IMG/VR virus record: IMGVR_UViG_3300032237_000091
Coordinates: 1-36,688 of that record
Direction: 5' to 3' (one strand)
Length of the DNA stretch: 36,688 nt
From: a virus
Taxonomy: Duplodnaviria; Caudoviricetes
Below are positions 1 through 15,359 of this stretch, in pieces. The position numbers and the translations under genes are program-made. How positions within the stretch are numbered: position 1 is the stretch's first letter; each line of letters starts with the position of its first letter. The notes beneath the pieces are model-generated. The model worked only from the letters and a program-made list of their open reading frames with translations, was not told the DNA's origin and did no database searches.

Positions 1-47
1 ATTATACGCTTGCAAGTAATCATATCTTATTTAGAAGGGAGGAAGTA

Positions 48-1031
48 ATGGCACAAACATATGCAACATCAATGTATAACTCGGCAAGAATTAAACCGAT
101 AGCAAACTACGAGGAGGCTAAACATCGGTTTGATAGTGTCGTGCCTATTCGTGGTAGGTTGGAAGATGTTAGACCTCTTGGCGAGAAGCGTAGGTTTTCT
201 TGGTATCACATAAAGAAAAGTCTTATATCTGTCGAACATCCTGACGAGCCGTTGGGTGTGTACGAGTACGCTTACTCATGCAACATAAGCGAGCGTAAGA
301 TTATAGAGTTCTTTAGTAACGGCGACATAGGTTTGTACTTTAACTATTGGAAAGGTCCGACGCTGTTTGGATTCGTAACCTATACTCTAGCAACAGACAT
401 AGGCAGAATAGAATCTTGTCAAGGCAAGTGGTACTTTATCAATACTAAGGGCGAGGGCTTTCCTTTTGTTGGCAATATGATACTGACTAAAGTTGAAGAC
501 ATATTCAGACCTAAAGGTGTGCAACCTGAGAAGAAGTACGCACTTAACCGTAAGATGATGAACGCATTACGCAAGAGGTATTCGTTCTTTACCGACTACG
601 GTAAGACCTGCTTGTCTATGAATCCTAAAGTGCAAAGGATTAAAGAACCTGTCGCAGTTAAGAATGTGCCTGATGCTTTCGTAAAGTTAGGTCTTAACTT
701 CGAACGACTTGAGTTATTACCGTATAAGTATTCGAACCATGATAATGATGGTAGCAAACTGGGTAGGTTAGGATTACTTGGTGGCTTAGCATACTTTGAG
801 AAGCATCAAGACTTAGAACTTCTGTATGAACTGATGGTGTACGTTGCTACATATTCAGGCAGATGGATTTGGTCGAATAACAACGAGGTACATTGTGACC
901 CTGACGATTTTGTAGGGACATTCGAAGAAGTATTGAAGTATCAGTATAAAGATAGTTTGTTTGTATCAGCCGAACAACCTATCGGGTCTATCTTTAAGGA
1001 CAATAACAAGAAGTATTTTAATGTTGTATAA
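48..1031 (+). CDS. hypothetical early phage protein (327 aa)
   Basis: Long ORF with GGAGG SD just upstream; no family recognised. Confidence 0.85.
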   Translation: MAQTYATSMYNSARIKPIANYEEAKHRFDSVVPIRGRLEDVRPLGEKRRFSWYHIKKSLISVEHPDEPLGVYEYAYSCNISERKIIEFFSNGDIGLYFNYWKGPTLFGFVTYTLATDIGRIESCQGKWYFINTKGEGFPFVGNMILTKVEDIFRPKGVQPEKKYALNRKMMNALRKRYSFFTDYGKTCLSMNPKVQRIKEPVAVKNVPDAFVKLGLNFERLELLPYKYSNHDNDGSKLGRLGLLGGLAYFEKHQDLELLYELMVYVATYSGRWIWSNNNEVHCDPDDFVGTFEEVLKYQYKDSLFVSAEQPIGSIFKDNNKKYFNVV

Positions 1032-1037
1032 CCACCT

Positions 1038-1062
1038 ACTTTGCGACATCATGTCGCCAAGT
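1038..1062. repeat. 25-bp palindrome copy 1 (ACTTTGCGACA-TCA-TGTCGCCAAGT)
   Basis: Intergenic inverted repeat, 11-bp arms with one mismatch; near-identical copies at 2199, 3815 and 5897. Confidence 0.95.
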
Positions 1063-1066
1063 AACT

Positions 1067-1080
1067 TAACCAAGAAGGAG
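1067..1080 (+). promoter_or_regulatory. conserved RBS leader TAACCAAGAAGGAG copy 1
   Basis: Identical 14-mer precedes the ATGs at 1089, 2247 and 3871. Confidence 0.9.
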
Positions 1081-1088
1081 AATTAAAT

Positions 1089-2183
1089 ATGGCAAATGTA
1101 TTTCTGAATAAAACTGCAACTCTCAAAGAAGCAGAAGACTTAATCCTCGCAGTAGGCTCTGATACCACGTTTCATTTGATGGGTGAGCCAGGGGTTGGTA
1201 AAACTTCAATGTTCAAGAACCTCGTGCGTCGCACAGGGTACAGGGGTATCTACATTGACGCACCGAACGTAGAGTTGGGTGAGTTGGGTATTCCAATTCC
1301 TGACCATGAGACTAAGACTACTCGCATCTATCCGAACGAGCAGTGGGGTTTCCATATAGATGAACCGAAGGTAATCTTTATCGACGAGTTTACTAAGGCT
1401 CATCAAGCAGTTAAGAACATGATGCATCCAATGCTTAACGACCCACGCATGATTATGGGTATGCCGTTGCATCCTGATGACATCGTGATAACTGCAGGTA
1501 ATTATACAGGCGACGGGGTAGGCGATACGATGATGGCTCACTCCAGAAACCGTATAAGCATAATCAATATTAAGAAACCACACGCTGGGTTTAATGTTGA
1601 TGGCTCTATTGATGGTGATTCATGGGGTGCGTGGGCTATCGCTAATGATATTGCACCTGAGATATTGGCATGGGTTAAGCAACATCCTGAGTTGTTGGCA
1701 TCTTATCTTGACACAGCGCAAGAGCAGAACAAGTACATCTTCAATCCCAAAGAAGCACAGAAGTCTTTTGTTTCACCACGTTCTCTTGCTAGAGCATCAA
1801 ATATTATTAACAAACGGGATAAGGTAACGGAGAACGTAATCGTTTGTGCGTTAGAAGGTACGATCGGGGCAGCAGCCGCTCGTGACTTGATGACCTTTGT
1901 ATCCGTAGCCGATTCACTTCCAAGTTGGGAGGACATCGTTAAGAATCCACAGATTGCACAAGTACCTGACTCACCCGTTGCGTTATGTATGCTTGCTTTC
2001 AGTGCAGTACAAAGAGTCGAGCGAGATACCATCGGTAAGTTCTTTACATATCTTAAGAGAACACCGAAGGAGTTGCAGTCTGTGTTCTGCCTTACAGGTA
2101 TGAAGAACGATGATAAGAAGAAGTTGTTTCTTACAAGCCAACCGTTCGTGGATTGGATGCGTGAGAACCAATACTTATTCTAG
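1089..2183 (+). CDS. MoxR/CobS-like AAA+ ATPase
   Basis: Walker A GEPGVGKT, Walker B IFIDE, AGN sensor, SPRS motif; a vWA gene lies nearby. Confidence 0.9.
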   Translation: MANVFLNKTATLKEAEDLILAVGSDTTFHLMGEPGVGKTSMFKNLVRRTGYRGIYIDAPNVELGELGIPIPDHETKTTRIYPNEQWGFHIDEPKVIFIDEFTKAHQAVKNMMHPMLNDPRMIMGMPLHPDDIVITAGNYTGDGVGDTMMAHSRNRISIINIKKPHAGFNVDGSIDGDSWGAWAIANDIAPEILAWVKQHPELLASYLDTAQEQNKYIFNPKEAQKSFVSPRSLARASNIINKRDKVTENVIVCALEGTIGAAAARDLMTFVSVADSLPSWEDIVKNPQIAQVPDSPVALCMLAFSAVQRVERDTIGKFFTYLKRTPKELQSVFCLTGMKNDDKKKLFLTSQPFVDWMRENQYLF

Positions 2184-2198
2184 TAGTAAAGCAGTAGA

Positions 2199-2223
2199 AC
2201 TTGGCGACATCGTGTCGCTAAGT
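2199..2223. repeat. 25-bp palindrome copy 2 (ACTTGGCGACA-TCG-TGTCGCTAAGT)
   Basis: Intergenic inverted repeat with one G-T pair. Confidence 0.95.
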
Positions 2224-2227
2224 AACT

Positions 2228-2241
2228 TAACCAAGAAGGAG
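2228..2241 (+). promoter_or_regulatory. conserved RBS leader TAACCAAGAAGGAG copy 2
   Basis: Exact copy upstream of ATG 2247. Confidence 0.9.
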
Positions 2242-2246
2242 TAACC

Positions 2247-2543
2247 ATGTTTATAAAAGGCAAAGAAATGGCTGATGAAGCACGTGATTTGAGAGATGCA
2301 CTTGCTGAAGTATGTGGTGAAGGTGACCATAGTTTAGGTGTAGTTATGACTTCACTTAGTGCGTTGCTAGTAGACACTGCATTAGAGCAAGCAGAAATAG
2401 AACCTTACGAACTAATAGGTAAGTTCGCAGGTATAGTTATGGCTTTCGTAAAAGTAATGGAAGAAGCCGAAACCGAAGTCGAAGTCGAAGAAAGAGTTGA
2501 AGAAGCACTTAACGAGAAAGGAGCATTACAATGGCTAAACTAA
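2247..2543 (+). CDS. small acidic hypothetical protein (98 aa)
   Basis: Strong SD; ORF overlaps the next gene; Glu-rich C-terminus. Confidence 0.8.
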   Translation: MFIKGKEMADEARDLRDALAEVCGEGDHSLGVVMTSLSALLVDTALEQAEIEPYELIGKFAGIVMAFVKVMEEAETEVEVEERVEEALNEKGALQWLN

Positions 2544-3802
2544 CGGCAGAACAACGCATCGAGAGATGCCACGTACAACTAATGAAACATCCGAACTTCT
2601 GTTTGTTCTCAGGATTGTTTATGATTGGTAAGGTAAGCGTGCAAGATGATATACGAACGGCTAAGACCAACGGCTTAGACGTTATCTATGGGCGTGATTT
2701 TGTGGATAGACTTACTGACAAGGCTCTAGGCTTTCTTATCTTGCATGAGAATATGCACAAGGCTTATCGTCATATGATTGTATGGAAATCTTTATACAAG
2801 AAGAACGCAACGCTTGCTAACATTGCATGTGATTTTGTTATCAACATACAGTTACATGACTACGACCCTGAGAGAAAGGTTATAGAGTTTCCTCTTGATG
2901 AGAACGGTCAACCTATGGGGTGTCTTGATGAGTCGTTTCGGGGTATGGATGCACATCAAGTCTTCTTGATACTAGAAGAGAAGTTGGGAGCTGACTACGG
3001 CAAACCTAAAATCTTTAAAGTCAAGGGTGTTGGTAATGGCGAAGGTGATGGTAAAGGTGAAGGTGATGGTGAAGAAGGCGATGAGCAAGCCCAGTCTTTA
3101 GATGACCATGACTGGGAAGGTGCTGATGCTATGTCAGAGAAGGAGGTGCAGGCTAACGCTAAAGAGATTGAAGACGCATTACGTCAAGGCTCTATGCTAG
3201 CAGGTAAGATGAACGGCAATGTATCCAGAGAGATAGACGAATTGCTCACACCTAAGATTGATTGGAAGGAAGCATTGCGTGAGTTCATCAAGACATCTAC
3301 TCAAGGCAAAGACCAAACAACATGGAAGCGATTGCATAAGCGTTACATCGGTATGGATATTATTATGCCGTCATCATACTCTGAGAAGATTGGTTCTATC
3401 GTTGTTGGTGTTGACGTATCAGGGTCATGCTATCACGACTTACCTAACTTCTTATCAGAGTTTAAATCTATCTGCGATGAAGTAAGTCCTGAGTGCGTGC
3501 ATCTATTGTATTGGGATTCAGCAATCGAGAAGCATGAGGTATATGTGGGCAACGAAGTAGCAGATGCAATCAATGTTACTCAAGCAGTAGGTGGTGGAGG
3601 TACTAACCCTGAGTGTGTGCCTATATACTTGAACAAAGAATCTATATCACCTGAGTGCTTAGTCGTATTCACCGACGGGTATATAGGTTCGCAGAATCGT
3701 AAGCACTGGGATTTAATATCACCTATTCCTGTGCTATGGTGCATCAAAGGCAATTCAAATTTTGATTTAGATGTAGTAGGTAAAGTTGTATACGTAGAGT
3801 AA
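2531..3802 (+). CDS. DUF2201-type metallopeptidase + vWA domain protein
   Basis: HENMH zincin motif, acidic Gly-rich linker, MIDAS DVSGS, GGGGT and VFTDG. Confidence 0.9.
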   Translation: MAKLTAEQRIERCHVQLMKHPNFCLFSGLFMIGKVSVQDDIRTAKTNGLDVIYGRDFVDRLTDKALGFLILHENMHKAYRHMIVWKSLYKKNATLANIACDFVINIQLHDYDPERKVIEFPLDENGQPMGCLDESFRGMDAHQVFLILEEKLGADYGKPKIFKVKGVGNGEGDGKGEGDGEEGDEQAQSLDDHDWEGADAMSEKEVQANAKEIEDALRQGSMLAGKMNGNVSREIDELLTPKIDWKEALREFIKTSTQGKDQTTWKRLHKRYIGMDIIMPSSYSEKIGSIVVGVDVSGSCYHDLPNFLSEFKSICDEVSPECVHLLYWDSAIEKHEVYVGNEVADAINVTQAVGGGGTNPECVPIYLNKESISPECLVVFTDGYIGSQNRKHWDLISPIPVLWCIKGNSNFDLDVVGKVVYVE

Positions 3803-3814
3803 TAACCAATAGGA

Positions 3815-3839
3815 ACTTGGCGACATCGTGTCGCCAAGT
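3815..3839. repeat. 25-bp palindrome copy 3 (ACTTGGCGACA-TCG-TGTCGCCAAGT)
   Basis: Intergenic; perfect 11-bp arms. Confidence 0.95.
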
Positions 3840-3850
3840 ATCCACCAACA

Positions 3851-3864
3851 TAACCAAGAAGGAG
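3851..3864 (+). promoter_or_regulatory. conserved RBS leader TAACCAAGAAGGAG copy 3
   Basis: Exact copy upstream of ATG 3871. Confidence 0.9.
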
Positions 3865-3870
3865 TAATAT

Positions 3871-4773
3871 ATGTCAGAAAATAATATTAGTATTGCATCA
3901 TCAGCGATGTTAGTCGAGATGTCTATCAGCACATGGACTGCACGCAAGTTAGATAAGAAGGTATCAGCCGAGGTTGATGTATCGAAAGGTACTAAGACTA
4001 ACGCAGGTAACTACAACAAAAACTTACTTGCTGGTACAGGCTTTCTTGATACGATAATAAAGTATGCGGCTAACGCTAGGGCGTGGCACATCTCTCAGAC
4101 TTTGCCGTGGTCTGATAATGGGTTACGCTTACTCCCAGTATCTAACTTCATCAACTACAAGAAGCAACTTACTGTGCTTGAAGAAAACTACATGGCTCTG
4201 GTAGATAAGTTTCTCATAGCATATCCTAACCTAGTGAGTGCGGCGGCTTTTCAGTTAGGTGATTTGTTTAATCGTGACGAGTATCCTGAAGCAGATAAGA
4301 TAGCGACTAGGTTCAAGTTCAACGTAAACTTTATGCCCGTGCCTACTAGTGGTGACTTCCGTATTGACATAGGCGAAGAAGCGAAGAATGAAATCATGCA
4401 GTCGTGCAACAACGCTTACGATGAACGTCTTAACATAGCAATGCGTCATGCGTGGGATAGGCTACATGAATGTCTCGTGCGTATGAGCGACAGGCTACAA
4501 GTTGATTTAGTTGATAGCGAAGAAGATGATGGGGGTACAGGTAAGAAGTTTAAACCCCGTGTATTCAGAGATACCTTAGTAGAGAACGCTGTGGAATTAG
4601 TAGACATGCTAAAACACTTTAACCTTACTAACGACACAACGCTTGAGCAAGCACGGCTTGATTTGCATAACGCAATCATGCACCAAGATGCCGACTCGCT
4701 AAGAGATAACATGCACGCTCGTGAAGAAGTAAAGCGTAAGGTAGATAGTATTTTAAATAAGTTTAACTTTTGA
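3871..4773 (+). CDS. DUF3150-like phage protein
   Basis: Motifs WTARKLDK, TLPW.D.G.RLLP and LGDLF...YP are typical of the protein found after AAA/vWA pairs; family recalled, not searched. Confidence 0.7.
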   Translation: MSENNISIASSAMLVEMSISTWTARKLDKKVSAEVDVSKGTKTNAGNYNKNLLAGTGFLDTIIKYAANARAWHISQTLPWSDNGLRLLPVSNFINYKKQLTVLEENYMALVDKFLIAYPNLVSAAAFQLGDLFNRDEYPEADKIATRFKFNVNFMPVPTSGDFRIDIGEEAKNEIMQSCNNAYDERLNIAMRHAWDRLHECLVRMSDRLQVDLVDSEEDDGGTGKKFKPRVFRDTLVENAVELVDMLKHFNLTNDTTLEQARLDLHNAIMHQDADSLRDNMHAREEVKRKVDSILNKFNF

Positions 4774-4785
4774 TAGGAGGTATAT

Positions 4786-5739
4786 ATGTTGACACAAATT
4801 GATAAGAGCAATATGTCTAATGCTAAGAGGTCTATAGAACTTGACCCCAAGTTAGGTGAGTACGTTGATGCAGTCGCAATGCTTAAGCCCTTATGCAACT
4901 TTGTTGCAGAAGATAATAACGTATCACAACATTGGGGGGACTTCATAAACGAAGAGGGTAAGAAAGATCGAAAGATATTTGAGTTTCTATCTTCTGTGCA
5001 AGTGTATGAAAATGGTGAACGTCTAGGCGATGTAGGTATAGCACACGTATATCGTAGAAACGAAGGTGGGCATGTGTTTGTTTACTTTGTAGATTCTTTT
5101 CGTATCTCTAAGGAAAGAGGTCAGCACAACAGGACCTTAAGCAAACACTTGAAGGTAGCATTACGGCATGTTAATAAAGCCTTTATACCTAGAGCAAACC
5201 AAGAACTAATCGAACAGATTAGTCAGCATGTTAGTTATAGACTTGGTCATGTTATGGGTAACAATCACAATCAAGCAAGGTGGTGTATAGACTGCGATAC
5301 CGAAGCGATGAACTATGCGTATTTAGCATACAAGGCTAGGTTGCGTGGCGAGACTACCGTAACGCTACCGACTGTGTTGGCTACTTCAAAAAAACGCAAT
5401 GACAATGACTTTGACAAATATATGGAAAGGTATGACGAAGCCAAGAAACTTACCGACCACTATAACAATATTGGTAGCAACGGCAACATAGGGTATGCAG
5501 TACAAGGCAAGTCAGATAAAAGTTTTGTTGTATGCAACTATGACAAGAACGACCCTAATACTTTATACAAATATAAATCATTAGATGATATGCCCAAACA
5601 TCTAGCCGATAAAATATCTGTTCTAAAGTTATTAGATATTGATGAGCCTGTTGGACACATTGGAGTTAAGTTACATTCTGATGGTGATATTAATCTTGAA
5701 TACTATTATTTAGTTTCGGGTGATATAATATTTGAGTAA
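4786..5739 (+). CDS. hypothetical protein (317 aa)
   Basis: AGGAGG SD and long ORF; no family recognised. Confidence 0.85.
   Translation: MLTQIDKSNMSNAKRSIELDPKLGEYVDAVAMLKPLCNFVAEDNNVSQHWGDFINEEGKKDRKIFEFLSSVQVYENGERLGDVGIAHVYRRNEGGHVFVYFVDSFRISKERGQHNRTLSKHLKVALRHVNKAFIPRANQELIEQISQHVSYRLGHVMGNNHNQARWCIDCDTEAMNYAYLAYKARLRGETTVTLPTVLATSKKRNDNDFDKYMERYDEAKKLTDHYNNIGSNGNIGYAVQGKSDKSFVVCNYDKNDPNTLYKYKSLDDMPKHLADKISVLKLLDIDEPVGHIGVKLHSDGDINLEYYYLVSGDIIFE
5721..5729 (+). promoter_or_regulatory. extended -10 sigma70 promoter (TGaTATAAT) for candidate sRNA1
   Basis: Perfect TGnTATAAT inside the last codons of ORF 4786; predicted start about G5736; no good -35. Confidence 0.6.
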
Positions 5740-5889
5740 CCCTTCTTGGTTACAGATACTAATGTAATGCCGTATACCTATATAGCATGATGTAGATATA
5801 TGGCGTCGGGAAACCGAGCATCTCCAATAACACAAGTAGGATGTGAATCTGCTTTAGCCTACACTAAGCCCTCTTCGGAGGGCTTTTTT
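5736..5889 (+). ncRNA. candidate structured antisense small RNA 1 (~154 nt)
   Basis: Flanked by a promoter and a terminator; several stems with G-U pairs; 5741-5752 is the exact reverse complement of three RBS leaders. Confidence 0.65.
5866..5889 (+). terminator. Rho-independent terminator
   Basis: AAGCCCTC-TTCG-GAGGGCTT followed by a T run. Confidence 0.92.
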
Positions 5890-5896
5890 ATTGGCT

Positions 5897-5921
5897 ACTT
5901 GGCGACATCATGTCGCTAAGT
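5897..5921. repeat. 25-bp palindrome copy 4 (ACTTGGCGACA-TCA-TGTCGCTAAGT)
   Basis: Lies between the terminator and the next promoter; not followed by the RBS leader. Confidence 0.95.
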
Positions 5922-5960
5922 TACTAGGGTTTGCACCTATAAAATATTTTTAAAAACCTC

Positions 5961-5990
5961 TTGCAATTATGGTTTGCTTAAGACTATACT
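5961..5990 (+). promoter_or_regulatory. sigma70-type promoter of the replication block
   Basis: TTGCAA-N18-TATACT with an AT-rich UP-like tract at 5939-5956. Confidence 0.6.
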
Positions 5991-6028
5991 GTGTCAATAG
6001 ATTAAAAATAAATAGGAAAAGTTAAACC

Positions 6029-6349
6029 ATGTCTACACCTGAATATAAGGTCAAGGCTATTGTCACCGACATACTTGATGAACACGATGTATATTATTTC
6101 AAACCTGCAACGCATGGCTACGGTAGGTCAGGAGTTCCTGATGTAGTTGCGTGCTACAACGGCACGTTCATTGCGATTGAATGTAAGGCAGGCTCAAACA
6201 AACCAACTAAATTACAAGAGCGAGAGATAGCCCGCATCAAAGAAGCAGGGGGCATTGCACTCGTCATCAACGCTGACAACACGAGCGACTTAGTTAAACT
6301 AATCGCTCGACTTAGCACCAGTTCTTTGAAAGGAAACCAAGATGAATGA
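6029..6349 (+). CDS. VRR-NUC / Holliday-junction resolvase-like nuclease
   Basis: GVPD...FIAIECKA...PTKLQ PD-(D/E)XK signature. Confidence 0.88.
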   Translation: MSTPEYKVKAIVTDILDEHDVYYFKPATHGYGRSGVPDVVACYNGTFIAIECKAGSNKPTKLQEREIARIKEAGGIALVINADNTSDLVKLIARLSTSSLKGNQDE

Positions 6350-6623
6350 TGGAATAGCAATAGTATTAGCACGCATGGAAACACACCCCGAAGAGTTTTA
6401 CACAACTGCAACGGATAAGTGGAAGTTTATTTATAGCGACTACTTTAAAGATGCAATGAGCGAAACTGAAAAAGGTATGATTTACGACAAGATTAAAGAG
6501 ATTCGTAAAGCAGAGTTCACTGCAAGGGTTATGCAAACCATGACTGCTGACATAACGAGTGATGAACTACGATTAGACTTTGGCAATGCACCTATGGCAG
6601 GTTCAAGAGTAGTTTACAAATGA
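6342..6623 (+). CDS. hypothetical protein (93 aa)
   Basis: AAGGA SD; overlaps both neighbours. Confidence 0.8.
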   Translation: MNDGIAIVLARMETHPEEFYTTATDKWKFIYSDYFKDAMSETEKGMIYDKIKEIRKAEFTARVMQTMTADITSDELRLDFGNAPMAGSRVVYK

Positions 6624-8449
6624 ACATAATCACATTAGATTTTGAAACGTATTACTCACAGGACTTTAGTCTTACTAAGATGACTACTGAAGAGTATGTT
6701 CGCAGTGATGATTTTCAAGTAATAGGCGTTGCTATTAAGGAGAATGATGGTGAAACTAAATGGTTTGATGGACAAAATAATAAATTGGGTGATGTGCTTG
6801 CTAGGTATAACTTTGCTGATTCTTTTGTCCTCGCTCACAATGCTATGTTTGACAGCGCTATATTATCTTGGCACTATGATATTAAACCCTTCGCATGGCT
6901 CGATACCTTGTCTATGGCAAGGGCAACTGATGGGTTAGAAGTTGGTAATAGTTTGGCTAAGTTGGCTGAACGCTATGGCCTAGGCGTAAAGGGTTCTGAA
7001 GTAATAGACGCTAAAGGTAAACGAATTGCTGACTTTACCGAAACGGAATTAAAACAGTATGGCGAATATTGTAAAAATGATGTTGAGATGACCTATAAAC
7101 TTTTTGACATTCTTGTTGACCGTTTTAGTAAATCTGAATTGCAATTAATCAGTTTAACTATCAAAATGTTTTCCGAGCCAGTTCTTCTCCTTGATAGCCT
7201 TTTGCTTGAACAACATCTTATGGAAGTTAAAGAACGCAAAGAAAAATTACTTGATGCTTGCATATCAGACAAAGATACATTGATGAGCAACCCAAAGTTT
7301 GCCGAATTGTTAATTAGTCTAGGCGTTGAGCCACCAATGAAAGAAAGCCCTGCCAATGGAAGACAAACATTTGCCTTTGCTAAAAACGATGAAGGTTTCA
7401 AAGCCCTCGCCGAACATCCCGACGAAAGAGTTCAAGCTCTTGTCTCGGCACGAATGGGAACTAAGTCAACGCTTGAAGAAACAAGAACTCAACGATTCAT
7501 TGATATCTCATTTCGAGGCAAAATGCCTGTCCCCTTGCGATATTACGCCGCACACACAGGAAGATGGGGAGGTGATGACAAACTTAATCTCCAAAATCTC
7601 CCAAGGAAATCACTCCTTAAATCGAGCATTATTGGACCTAATAAATTCATCCTTGTTGACGCCGACTCGTCCCAAATCGAAGCGAGGACGGTAGCGTGGC
7701 TTGCTGGTCAGAACGATCTCGTTTTAGCCTTTGAAAGGAAAGAAGATGTCTATAAGATTATGGCTAGCAGTATTTACAACAAAGCGGTCGAAGACATCAC
7801 GGACTCGGAAAGGTTCGTGGGCAAGACGACAATCCTCGGCGCAGGCTACGGCATGGGTGCAACAAAGTTTGCTATACAACTCAAAACTTTTGGCGTGGAA
7901 ATCGAGGAGCAGGAAGCGAAGAGAATTATCGACGTATACCGTGCAACCTATCCAAGAATCCCCGAACTGTGGAAGGAAGCAAATCGTTCCCTTGACGCTA
8001 TGGCACAAAAGAAAACTTGTGAAGTTGGGTGTCAACCCGAAGCACTTAGCCTTACGGCATCAGGTTTTCTACTCCCGAGCGGACTTTACCTCAATTACAA
8101 CGACCTTAGACGAGACGATGACGCATATAGTTATGGAAGTAGACGAGGGCGTGTGAAGATTTATGGCGGGAAGGTAGTGGAAAACTTATGTCAGGCTGTA
8201 GCACGATGCATTATTGGTGAGCAGATGTTGCGTATAGCCAAGCGTTACAAGGTAGCACTAACGGTTCACGATGCGGTCATGGCAGTTGTACCCGAAGAAG
8301 AACGTGATGAAGCTATTAAGTATATACATGATTGTATGAGTTGGCGTCCAAGCTGGGCTAAAACATTACCTCTTGCTTGTGAAATAGGTGCGGGTAAAAG
8401 CTATGCTGATTGCGGTAAGAAAATGTCAATAGAAAAATGGGGGTTGTGA
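6620..8449 (+). CDS. polA: family A DNA polymerase with 3'-5' exonuclease
   Basis: ExoI DFETY, ExoII HNAMFD, TGRW, NLQNLP, motif A DSSQIEAR, motif B RFVGKTTILGAGYG, motif C VHDA. Confidence 0.95.
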   Translation: MNIITLDFETYYSQDFSLTKMTTEEYVRSDDFQVIGVAIKENDGETKWFDGQNNKLGDVLARYNFADSFVLAHNAMFDSAILSWHYDIKPFAWLDTLSMARATDGLEVGNSLAKLAERYGLGVKGSEVIDAKGKRIADFTETELKQYGEYCKNDVEMTYKLFDILVDRFSKSELQLISLTIKMFSEPVLLLDSLLLEQHLMEVKERKEKLLDACISDKDTLMSNPKFAELLISLGVEPPMKESPANGRQTFAFAKNDEGFKALAEHPDERVQALVSARMGTKSTLEETRTQRFIDISFRGKMPVPLRYYAAHTGRWGGDDKLNLQNLPRKSLLKSSIIGPNKFILVDADSSQIEARTVAWLAGQNDLVLAFERKEDVYKIMASSIYNKAVEDITDSERFVGKTTILGAGYGMGATKFAIQLKTFGVEIEEQEAKRIIDVYRATYPRIPELWKEANRSLDAMAQKKTCEVGCQPEALSLTASGFLLPSGLYLNYNDLRRDDDAYSYGSRRGRVKIYGGKVVENLCQAVARCIIGEQMLRIAKRYKVALTVHDAVMAVVPEEERDEAIKYIHDCMSWRPSWAKTLPLACEIGAGKSYADCGKKMSIEKWGL

Positions 8450-14258: not shown

Positions 14259-15106
14259 GTGAATTAGCTCTGTTTAACCAAAATCTGCCCGAGTATTTAA
14301 AAGATGTAAAGCTTGATGATGTAACTAAAGCCCTCACGGGTAATGGTGGAAGCAAGCGCATTTCTTTGCGTGGCAGTAAATTTCGTATGGTAGTTAACGG
14401 CGAAGAAATTGTTACAAGCAAAAACGAAGCAATGAATGTTGTTATTGTTAATGCGGCTAAAAATATTTCACGTCAGTTCTACGCTAAATCATATAACCCA
14501 AATGAAGAGGCTACTGCACCTGATTGTTGGTCTAATGATGGCGTAACACCTGATGCCTCTATTAAAGAAGCACAGCATCATAACTGTACCGATTGCCCAC
14601 AAAACATTAAAGGGTCTGGTCAAGGCGATAGTCGTGCTTGTCGTCACCGTCGTAAGTTAGCAGTTGTATTAGCTGATGATGTTGGTGGAGATGTATATCA
14701 ATTAGAGTTAGCATCAAAATCTATTTTTGGTAAAGGCGAATTAAATACTATGCCATTTGAGCAGTTTGCTAAGTATGTTGGCTCACAAGGGTATAACTTA
14801 AATACGCTAGTAACCGAAATTCGTTTTGACGACAACAGTGATGTTGCTAAAGTGTATTTCCGCCCTATTAAGTTTTTAAGCAAAGAAGAATGGGAAGTTG
14901 CTAAACGTCAAGGCGACACACCTGCGGCTAAGAATGCGGTTGTTATGACTGCTGCGCAAACTGATGGTGTAGCTAAGAAAGCTATTGGAGTAACTACACC
15001 AGCTGTAGTAGAAGCTGAAGCTGAGCCAAAAAAGCGTGAAGACAAAAAAGCTGAGCCTACTCCTAAACGTGATTTAAAAGCAGCTTTAGGTGATTGGGCA
15101 AACTAA
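14255..15106 (+). CDS. putative ssDNA-binding/annealing protein with Cys cluster
   Basis: PDCWSNDG...CTDCPQN..GS...RAC; flexible charged tail ending in W; position in the replication module. Confidence 0.6.
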   Translation: MSELALFNQNLPEYLKDVKLDDVTKALTGNGGSKRISLRGSKFRMVVNGEEIVTSKNEAMNVVIVNAAKNISRQFYAKSYNPNEEATAPDCWSNDGVTPDASIKEAQHHNCTDCPQNIKGSGQGDSRACRHRRKLAVVLADDVGGDVYQLELASKSIFGKGELNTMPFEQFAKYVGSQGYNLNTLVTEIRFDDNSDVAKVYFRPIKFLSKEEWEVAKRQGDTPAAKNAVVMTAAQTDGVAKKAIGVTTPAVVEAEAEPKKREDKKAEPTPKRDLKAALGDWAN

Positions 15107-15107
15107 A

Positions 15108-15359
15108 ATGAGCTTGAGAGGTTATAGCTTTCATCTTGTTAAGGCTAACCAAGAAGCAGATACCAAGAAAAATATTGGTGTCCTTCTTGGGAGGGTCTGT
15201 ATTGATAACGACGTACCCGTGGCTAAAGTTGCAAAATATTTTAATGTATCTCGCATGACTATATACTCGTGGTTTACTGGTACGTCAATACCGCACAAGA
15301 ACAAAGCCGAAAAAATTAAAAAACTATTAGACAAACTCCTACCAAATGCGGAAGCATAA
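15108..15359 (+). CDS. Cro/XRE-like HTH protein
   Basis: VAKVAKYFNVSRMTIYSWFTG; start moved to ATG 15108. Confidence 0.8.
   Translation: MSLRGYSFHLVKANQEADTKKNIGVLLGRVCIDNDVPVAKVAKYFNVSRMTIYSWFTGTSIPHKNKAEKIKKLLDKLLPNAEA

What the first reader, a model, noticed from the sequence alone, without database searches (positions are those of the whole stretch)
5736..5753. Candidate sRNA1 is perfectly antisense to the shared RBS of three early genes
Seen: CCTTCTTGGTTA (5741-5752) is the exact reverse complement of TAACCAAGAAGG at 1067-1078, 2228-2239 and 3851-3862. These are the SD regions of the AAA ATPase, 98-aa and DUF3150-like genes. The antisense tract sits in a hairpin GTAACC-CTTCTT-GGTTAC that exposes the anti-SD CUUCUU in its loop. 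The hairpin starts 7 nt after a perfect extended -10, and the region ends in a terminator. The leader of gene 48 also matches 7 nt (AGAAGGG, 33-39). Established: loop-exposed seeds that block the SD are how antisense RNAs repress translation. Inference: one phage sRNA shuts off a set of early genes that carry a standardised target site, which would explain why the leaders are identical well beyond the SD core.
Basis: partly seen in the sequence, partly recalled or inferred. Interest (0 to 1): 0.9.

Follow-up and report, generated by a model that had tools for sequence, protein, structure and literature searches.

The report
Pseudoknotted phage RNA targeting early genes
At the end of its early genes, a family of uncultured phages carries a folded non-coding element whose front hairpin is the mirror image of the ribosome-landing signal of the phage's own early genes and changes along with that signal between relatives, so it is likely a small RNA that shuts down a set of early proteins, though no transcript or effect has been measured.

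Summary
The 12-mer occurs exactly three times in early leaders and once reversed at 5741-5752. The three genes rank 1-3 of 35 start regions for pairing. A homologous 130-195-nt element lies at the same place in 52 of 53 distinct relatives' intergenic sequences. It has a -10 box, a variable 5' module, a conserved core with two covarying pseudoknots, and a terminator; Rfam has no match. The 5' module tracks each phage's own AAA and DUF3150 leaders across 19 clusters (z 7.3; five control leaders z -0.4 to 1.0 by length; 9 of 10 disjoint pairs). About a third of types fit poorly. Best reading (0.72): a trans-acting antisense RNA that damps early translation in an apparently lytic phage. It works like P1 c4 and Vibrio OppZ but belongs to neither family. 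Corrections: the duplex covers only 4 of 6 SD bases, gene 48 shows no family-wide covariation, and most leader identity is a separate palindrome cassette. No RNA data exist. The scan noted this before on other DNA (e1-6266495, and analogues in other phages).

The parts
5721..5729 (+). Extended -10 promoter element TG-A-TATAAT (predicted promoter of the RNA), inside the last codons of the 317-aa gene
   Evidence: Sequence. A -10-like hexamer lies 4-8 nt before the first hairpin in 20 of 22 types examined (the other two have no 5' hairpin); TG is present in 9 of 22; hexamers were chosen automatically except 12 of 52 set by hand
5736..5889 (+). Predicted ~154-nt non-coding RNA: 5' antisense hairpin, conserved core, terminator
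   Evidence: Fold z -4.07; homologues in 52 of 53 distinct intergenic sequences; covariance model R1; no Rfam family
5736..5753 (+). 5' targeting hairpin; the tract 5741-5752 is antisense to three leaders; loop 5742-5747
5767..5821 (+). Core domain 1: three-way junction (P1 5767-5770/5818-5821, P2 about 5771-5775/5798-5802, P3 5806-5809/5814-5817); its large loop carries the first pseudoknot strand 5785-5791
   Evidence: Hand-drawn structure counted on alignment A3: P1 87.5%, P2 75%, P3 67% of cells paired; one subgroup of relatives lacks P3
5785..5852 (+). Pseudoknot 1: 5785-5791 (one bulged base) pairs with 5847-5852
   Evidence: 6 pairs, 100% paired in 26 of 26 sequences, 3 pairs with changes on both sides; 6 bp in 45 of 48 distinct RNAs
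5831..5862 (+). Hairpin P4 (5831-5834/5842-5845) whose loop 5836-5840 pairs with 5858-5862 (pseudoknot 2)
   Evidence: P4 99% paired; the two PK2 helices 89% and 95% paired, 4 of 5 pairs with changes on both sides; at least 5 bp in 43 of 48; variants listed
5866..5889 (+). Intrinsic terminator
   Evidence: found in 52 of 53
1067..1078 (+). Target site in the leader of the AAA ATPase gene (start 1089)
   Evidence: rank 1 of 35
2228..2239 (+). Target site in the leader of the 98-aa gene (start 2247)
   Evidence: rank 2 of 35
3851..3862 (+). Target site in the leader of the DUF3150-like gene (start 3871)
   Evidence: rank 3 of 35
33..39 (+). Weak 7-nt match in the gene-48 leader; doubtful target
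   Evidence: Rank 4 of 35; no co-variation in relatives
1037..1063 (.). 27-bp palindrome (11-5-11) before the AAA leader
2198..2224 (.). 27-bp palindrome before the 98-aa gene leader
3814..3840 (.). 27-bp palindrome before the DUF3150-like leader
5896..5922 (.). Fourth palindrome copy, just after the RNA's terminator
4786..5739 (+). 317-aa gene directly upstream of the RNA in the relatives examined (it was used as the anchor); no fold assigned
   Evidence: model pLDDT 88; weak YjbR/CyaY-like N-terminal match Z 5.7-6.9; 39 homologues, none with a Pfam domain or a name beyond 'hypothetical protein'
5961..5990 (+). Sigma-70-type promoter (TTGCAA-18-TATACT) of the downstream resolvase/polymerase operon, separate from the RNA

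Best explanation
The region 5736-5889 is a conserved structured element whose 5' hairpin is complementary to the leaders of the phage's own palindrome-marked early genes, and it is likely a trans-acting small RNA that would pair with those leaders and block ribosome loading. Shown: the complementarity, its co-variation with the leaders across relatives, the conserved order (-10 box, variable 5' module, double-pseudoknot core, terminator), and the position at the 3' end of the early block. Inferred: the RNA is made from the extended -10 promoter, or cut from the 3' end of the early transcript, or both. The loop CUUCUU would first pair with AAGAAG in the unstructured leader just after the palindrome. 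The stem would then open to give a 12-bp duplex over part of the SD (net -11 to -12 kcal/mol), and translation of the AAA ATPase, 98-aa and DUF3150-like genes would fall. Genes next in line (the VWA/DUF2201 gene overlaps the 98-aa gene's end) might fall through coupling or polarity. Because the RNA gene is the last of the early block, it would act as a delayed negative feedback marking the early-to-middle switch. The pseudoknotted core is predicted to be a constant scaffold (stability or protein binding) that carries exchangeable targeting modules; its role is not shown.
For: In the window the three genes rank 1-3 of 35 start regions, at -11.3, -10.9 and -10.7 kcal/mol after unfolding costs; the next is -7.0. 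Matched versus mismatched test, 19 clusters from 45 loci: mean longest complement 7.95 nt to own AAA and DUF3150 leaders against 5.92 to other phages' leaders (z 7.3; by energy z 6.9; 0 of 20000 permutations). The g48, VWA, g317, Hjc and polymerase leaders give z -0.4 to 1.0 by length and -1.1 to 1.6 by energy. Disjoint close-relative pairs with different modules: own beats swapped in 9 of 10 by energy (p 0.011); controls 5:5 and 6:4. Distinct perfect matches: W 12 nt, L029 11 nt, L044 12-13 nt, L032 9-10 nt, and L013 with two tandem tracts of 13 and 10 nt matching two leader classes. Antisense beats direct orientation in 19 of 19, and the best complement lies in the 5' module (19% of the RNA) in 29 of 38 cases. 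Across whole records, early genes top the list in G004, G005, G009 and G002, of 68-83 genes each. Core co-variation: 22 of 35 pairs changed on both sides, 0 of 500 shuffles as high, slid controls far lower. No conserved minus-strand ORF, and none in this window. Loop-exposed pairing at a ribosome-binding site is the c4 mechanism (PMC12197685, section 9 read).
Against: No transcript, 5' end or regulatory effect is shown. By length alone the disjoint-pair test is not significant (7 for, 2 against, 1 tie; p 0.09). Own leaders rank first in only 8 of 19 clusters and in the top three in 11 of 19. Several types fit poorly: L036 5 nt; L030 4-5 nt (it pairs better with its VWA and g317 leaders); L073 4 nt for DUF3150; L015 and L046 types have only a 6-7-nt unstructured 5' end. 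G003, G006 and G007 show no preference for early genes, and G001 and G008 only a partial one. In L004 the perfect tract ends at the first SD bases. Module boundaries and 12 of 52 start points were set by me with the motif in view. The pseudoknot strands were located with patterns that presuppose them. A second antisense-like module 3' of the core in some relatives does not track own leaders (z -1.0 to 0.5, 12-13 loci), so self-regulation may not be the whole job.
Confidence: 0.72

Rival explanations
1. The RNA pairs with ribosome-binding sites, but its main job is exclusion of other phages. It would silence the early genes of later-arriving kin or competitors (c4-like heteroimmunity), and some modules would aim at other phage types or host genes.
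For: 20 module types occur among phages whose AAA proteins are 72% or more identical to the window's, while the core stays constant; fast change of matched pairs is what conflict would produce (inference). The extra 3' module of L122/L050 pairs at -25 kcal/mol with the AAA leaders of two other types against -11 with its own, and its best 4 of 1393 start windows are early genes of other types. c4 underlies P1/P7 heteroimmunity (PMC12197685 section 9).
Against: The 3' modules show no enrichment for palindrome-marked leaders overall (0-4 of the top 15 for 11 modules, p 0.22 or more). The records carrying them are 19-46% complete, so own targets may be missing. No tyrosine integrase or resolvase in 5 of 5 near-complete relatives. 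This window's RNA has no 3' module.
Confidence: 0.14
2. The pseudoknotted core is the functional unit, acting in cis (antiterminator, riboswitch-like switch or self-cleaving ribozyme) on read-through into the replication genes, and the antisense hairpin is secondary.
For: The core is far more conserved than the 5' module and has near-invariant unpaired bases; it sits just before a terminator.
Against: The downstream operon has its own conserved promoter. Up to about 40 nt can be inserted between core and terminator. No Rfam riboswitch or ribozyme matches. This reading does not explain the co-variation with leaders.
Confidence: 0.06
3. The 12-mer is a DNA protein-binding site present in three leaders and, inverted, at the promoter's start site; no RNA pairing is involved.
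For: The neighbouring palindromes look like DNA sites (116 copies; mismatches A.A 68, T.T 36, G.T 41, A.C 24), so a DNA-binding regulator probably exists here.
Against: The copy is antisense in 19 of 19 clusters; the better matches centre on the SD or start codon; it is folded into a 5' hairpin in 20 of 22 types; it sits inside a co-varying RNA structure.
Confidence: 0.04
4. The pairing raises or stabilises early expression, or guides a phage protein (for example the 317-aa neighbour) to these mRNAs, instead of simply blocking ribosomes.
For: The duplex lies partly upstream of the SD core; a constant scaffold plus a variable guide is the layout of guide RNAs (general knowledge).
Against: Target leaders are predicted open, so there is no inhibitory fold to relieve. 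In several types the module covers the SD through the AUG.
Confidence: 0.06
5. Chance match, or a relic ribosome-binding site of a minus-strand gene.
For: All SD regions resemble each other; some relatives have a 4-8-codon minus-strand ORF behind the tract.
Against: Expectation 2e-5; control leaders with SDs show no effect; no ORF here and none conserved.
Confidence: 0.02

Closest known systems
c4 antisense RNA of phages P1 and P7 (Rfam RF01695). Seen: PMC12197685 section 9 and passages; PMC8201110 passages; PMC2864571 passages
   Same: Phage-made structured RNA; complementary tracts in loops; pairs at ribosome-binding regions of the phage's own mRNA; specificity differs between related phages
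   Different: No sequence or structure match to RF01695. c4 controls antirepressor synthesis in a temperate phage; here the targets are several separate early leaders (up to about six) in phages without a detectable integrase. The core has two pseudoknots.
OppZ and CarZ, 3' UTR-derived autoregulatory sRNAs of Vibrio cholerae (PMC7398697; abstract and outline seen)
   Same: RNA at the 3' end of an operon, sharing its terminator, that pairs with upstream translation-initiation regions of its own transcript (negative feedback)
   Different: Those are bacterial and made by RNase E processing. This one has its own predicted promoter, several targets, a protected hairpin seed and a pseudoknotted core. 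Processing and Hfq use are untested.
STnc6030 (BTP1) and sas (P22) superinfection-exclusion antisense RNAs (PMC12197685 passages)
   Same: Phage RNAs that act on phage mRNA by pairing; relevant to the exclusion rival
   Different: Those are cis-encoded in prophages with one target; this is trans-encoded with short seeds and several targets
Polynucleobacter-1 motif (RF01718; table line in PMC2864571)
   Same: Freshwater structured RNA motif of unknown function
   Different: Not matched in the Rfam scans of the window or of 8 relatives' loci

Membership tests
c4 antisense RNA (RF01695) | Match to the C4 covariance model | tested here: not met
   No C4 hit at E <= 1 in window 1-7000 or in 8 relatives' loci. 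The genome search was also blank, but its control genomes did not ring.
c4 antisense RNA (RF01695) | Loop-exposed tracts complementary to own ribosome-binding regions | tested here: met
c4 antisense RNA (RF01695) | Target is the antirepressor (icd-ant) operon of a temperate phage | tested here: not met
   Targets are AAA ATPase, 98-aa and DUF3150-like genes; no integrase or resolvase in 5 of 5 near-complete relatives; a plasmid-prophage state is not excluded
3' UTR-derived autoregulatory sRNA (OppZ/CarZ type) | Lies at the operon's 3' end and pairs with upstream translation-initiation regions of the same operon | tested here: met
   Same strand, directly after the last early gene, ends in the terminator; co-transcription itself not shown
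3' UTR-derived autoregulatory sRNA (OppZ/CarZ type) | Released by RNase E processing; Hfq-bound (Hfq dependence recalled; the paper lists Hfq as keyword and method) | not testable with these tools
   No RNA data. A conserved -10 box suggests a primary transcript.
Trans-acting translational repressor sRNA (general class) | Discrete transcript that lowers target translation by pairing | not testable with these tools
   Only sequence evidence:
Known self-cleaving ribozymes and riboswitches in Rfam | Match to a family model | tested here: not met
   Only sub-threshold terminator matches (SpF51 E 0.064, STnc100 E 0.23). My comparison by eye with pistol, twister, hammerhead and HDV-like layouts is from recall; an unknown class is not excluded.
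RNA-guided protein system (scaffold plus variable guide) | A linked effector protein of a known RNA-guided fold | tested here: inconclusive
   The 317-aa neighbour has no clear fold match (Foldseek none at E <= 0.001; best Z 7.0); other early proteins were not folded

The most novel reading that the evidence does not exclude
These phages carry a modular RNA platform: one constant double-pseudoknot core, probably protein-binding or catalytic, fitted with exchangeable anti-ribosome-site hairpins at either end. The front module silences the phage's own early regulon, and the extra rear modules are aimed at competing phage types or host genes. That would be RNA-guided phage-versus-phage conflict in lytic phages, with leader tags and seeds diversifying like an immunity code.
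Probability: 0.17. Interest if true: 0.92.

Novelty: new variant of a known kind. Interest (0 to 1): 0.7.

Why it matters
How lytic phages that lack their own RNA polymerase turn off early genes is mostly unknown (own knowledge; I did not check these phages for an RNA polymerase beyond the window's Pfam scan). This family offers a one-RNA, many-leader switch with natural compensatory changes that name the targets in advance, so it can be tested with reporters and no cultured host. The core is an uncatalogued double-pseudoknot fold with strong co-variation. The natural series of matched seed-leader pairs is also a ready set of candidate orthogonal translational repressors.

Tried and rejected
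Expression: the look-up of sequencing runs listed no RNA holder, so no reads were laid; this says nothing either way. Host and isolates: no relative in GTDB genomes; GenBank phages give only 25-26% AAA and 36% polymerase matches, and the RNA region matches only terminators or AT-rich stretches there. Wider spread of the core: of 115 further loci scanned with model R1, 4 scored 40 bits or more and 2 scored weakly; I did not check their gene context, and pattern scan 85 covered only 17 of 64 parts of the collection. Weak second hits in the early region are terminators. The 317-aa neighbour as protein partner: no fold named, Atlas hits under 0.9; gene 48 gave no usable Atlas hit. Palindromes as RNA hairpins: disfavoured because A.A and T.T mismatches dominate, though G.T exceeds A.C (41 against 24); the reference palindrome was mis-picked in 4 of 20 loci there. 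Gene 48 as a conserved target: not supported. 3' modules as repressors of six own leaders: not supported. Prior description: searches found no paper on this RNA. The catalogue of 10,000 viral RNA candidates (PMC10690425) could not be checked by sequence: its alignment archives were too large or unreadable and one table was not searched, so the core may be an unnamed entry there.

Full report
Setting. The window is a 36.7-kb fragment of a phage record, estimated 58% complete. It begins inside an early block: gene 48, AAA ATPase, 98-aa gene, DUF2201/VWA gene, DUF3150-like gene (sub-threshold match), and a 317-aa gene. A 290-nt gap follows, then resolvase, DNA polymerase A, nuclease, SNF2 helicase and a DUF927 gene. 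Searches with the AAA and DUF3150-like proteins and one core motif returned 146 loci from IMG/VR and metagenome contigs, many redundant. The gene order is kept in the first 20 wherever the contigs reach. There is no relative in GTDB genomes and no close isolate. Five near-complete relatives lack a tyrosine integrase and a resolvase, so the family is probably lytic; a plasmid-prophage state is not excluded.

Observation. The expectation of the inverted 12-mer in the gap is about 2e-5. Three refinements: the hairpin overlaps the stop codon of the 317-aa gene; six of the twelve complementary bases are in the loop, five in the 3' arm and one in the 5' arm; and the duplex covers AAGG of AAGGAG. The leaders share up to 43 bases, of which 25-27 are a palindrome that also stands after the terminator.

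The RNA family. 86 loci held the 317-aa gene and gave 53 distinct downstream sequences. One ends at the contig edge; the other 52 have a terminator and the core motif, giving 48 distinct RNAs of about 130-195 nt. The order is constant: -10 box, variable 5' module, core, optional extra module, terminator. A -10-like hexamer lies 4-8 nt before the first hairpin in 20 of 22 types examined; the other two have a short unstructured 5' end. Twelve of 52 start points and two stop positions were set by hand. On a 26-sequence alignment of one subgroup, a hand-drawn structure has 89% of cells paired and 22 of 35 pairs changed on both sides; no shuffle of 500 reached this and slid controls fell to 33-46% paired (the shuffle ignores relatedness). 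Pseudoknot 1 is fully paired in all 26, with three compensated pairs. It reaches 6 bp in 45 of 48 RNAs, and pseudoknot 2 reaches 5 bp in 43 of 48 (G-U and one bulge allowed, strands located by pattern). The model finds one strong hit per locus; weaker hits are terminators. Rfam has no match.

Does the 5' module track the leaders? 45 loci had a full AAA gene and both leader calls; loci with a truncated AAA gene or a missing call were left out. They form 19 clusters at 90% identity. The module's longest perfect complement to its own AAA and DUF3150 leaders averages 7.95 nt against 5.92 for other clusters (z 7.3; energy z 6.9; 0 of 20000 permutations). Five control leaders on the same genomes show nothing (z -1.1 to 1.6 over both measures). 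In ten disjoint pairs of close relatives with different modules, own beats swapped in 9 by energy (p 0.011) and in 7 of 9 untied by length (p 0.09); controls are flat. The matches are different words in different lineages, and L013 carries two tandem tracts that match two leader classes. The match is antisense, not direct, in 19 of 19, and lies in the 5' fifth of the RNA in 29 of 38 cases. In this window the three genes rank 1-3 of 35 start regions (my own gene calls and an approximate accessibility model, not IntaRNA). In nine longer records, early genes head the ranking in four, partly in two, and not in three whose 5' modules are short. Against the reading: own leaders rank first in only 8 of 19 clusters, and L036, L030 and L073 fit poorly.

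Mechanism. Shown: complementarity, co-variation, conserved architecture and position. Inferred: the RNA is transcribed from the extended -10 or released from the early transcript. The loop seeds on the open stretch behind the palindrome, the stem opens, and a 12-bp duplex with net -11 to -12 kcal/mol forms on the three targets against -0.2 to -5.3 on five other leaders. This would lower translation. Being last in the early block, the RNA would act with a delay and help end the early phase. The core is best read as a constant scaffold; catalysis or protein binding is open. The 317-aa neighbour gave a confident model but only weak YjbR/CyaY-like similarity.

Second layer and odd modules. The palindromes are lineage-specific, 3-11 copies per locus where detected, with mismatches dominated by A.A and T.T, which fits DNA operators better than RNA stems. 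Earlier notes of the scan read them the same way. About a dozen relatives carry a second module, often a hairpin with CAU and a pyrimidine tract, between core and terminator. It does not track six own leaders. In L122/L050 it fits early leaders of other phage types best, but there is no enrichment overall and the records are incomplete. This is the basis of the exclusion rival and of the novel case, and is a lead only.

Comparison. It works like c4 of P1/P7 (PMC12197685: first part, passages and section 9 read; PMC8201110 and PMC2864571: passages) and, in position, like OppZ and CarZ (PMC7398697: abstract and outline). It fails membership in C4 and cannot be tested for RNase E processing. Searches found no description; PreS (10.1101/2024.10.31.621285) was seen only as a search listing and in the review, and targets a host gene. 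The viral RNA catalogue PMC10690425 could not be searched by sequence. The scan's own notes report the same RNA type in one related genome and analogous RNAs in other phages; these are unchecked and not counted as evidence.

Verdict. A real, uncatalogued phage RNA family with good comparative evidence for pairing to its own early ribosome-binding sites, and no direct evidence of expression or repression. New variant of a known kind; interest 0.70; confidence in the repressor reading 0.72.

Noticed in passing
window 1037-1063, 2198-2224, 3814-3840, 5896-5922; up to 11 copies in L026: Lineage-specific 27-bp (11-5-11) palindrome before many early genes and after the RNA's terminator; mismatch pattern fits a DNA operator; binding protein unknown
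   Followed up: partly
L009, L011, L014, L021, L031, L035, L043, L049, L050, L056, L114, L122, L127 (between core and terminator, e.g. L122 about 7190-7220): Second antisense-like module that reads as the mirror of an SD plus start codon but has no perfect own target in the DNA held; the L122/L050 version fits other phage types' early leaders
   Followed up: partly
window 5925-5939 and 5961-5998: A TAGGG...CCTA-like dyad, then a promoter whose -10 and start region (GACTATACTGTGTCAAT) is strongly conserved across relatives; a candidate middle promoter
   Followed up: no
window 4786-5739: 317-aa protein apparently confined to this family; the N-terminal part weakly resembles YjbR/CyaY folds (Z 5.7-6.9). 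That T4 MotA has a related fold is recalled, not tested.
   Followed up: partly
L005, L011, L045, L036 5' modules: The loop ACUUC may pair with GAAGU in codons 3-4 of the AAA gene, so some types may reach past the start codon
   Followed up: partly
window 2531-3802: DUF2201 metallopeptidase-like plus VWA protein (HENMH motif) beside the AAA ATPase and DUF3150-like gene; a conserved early module of unknown function
   Followed up: no
L001 about 5900-6300; L019 about 6200-6650: Gene-free stretch before the early operon with many GTTC/GAAC-containing repeats, then a near-consensus TTGACA...TATACT promoter
   Followed up: no
window 15090-15359: 89-aa helix-turn-helix protein in the replication block; a possible reader of the palindromes, untested
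   Followed up: no
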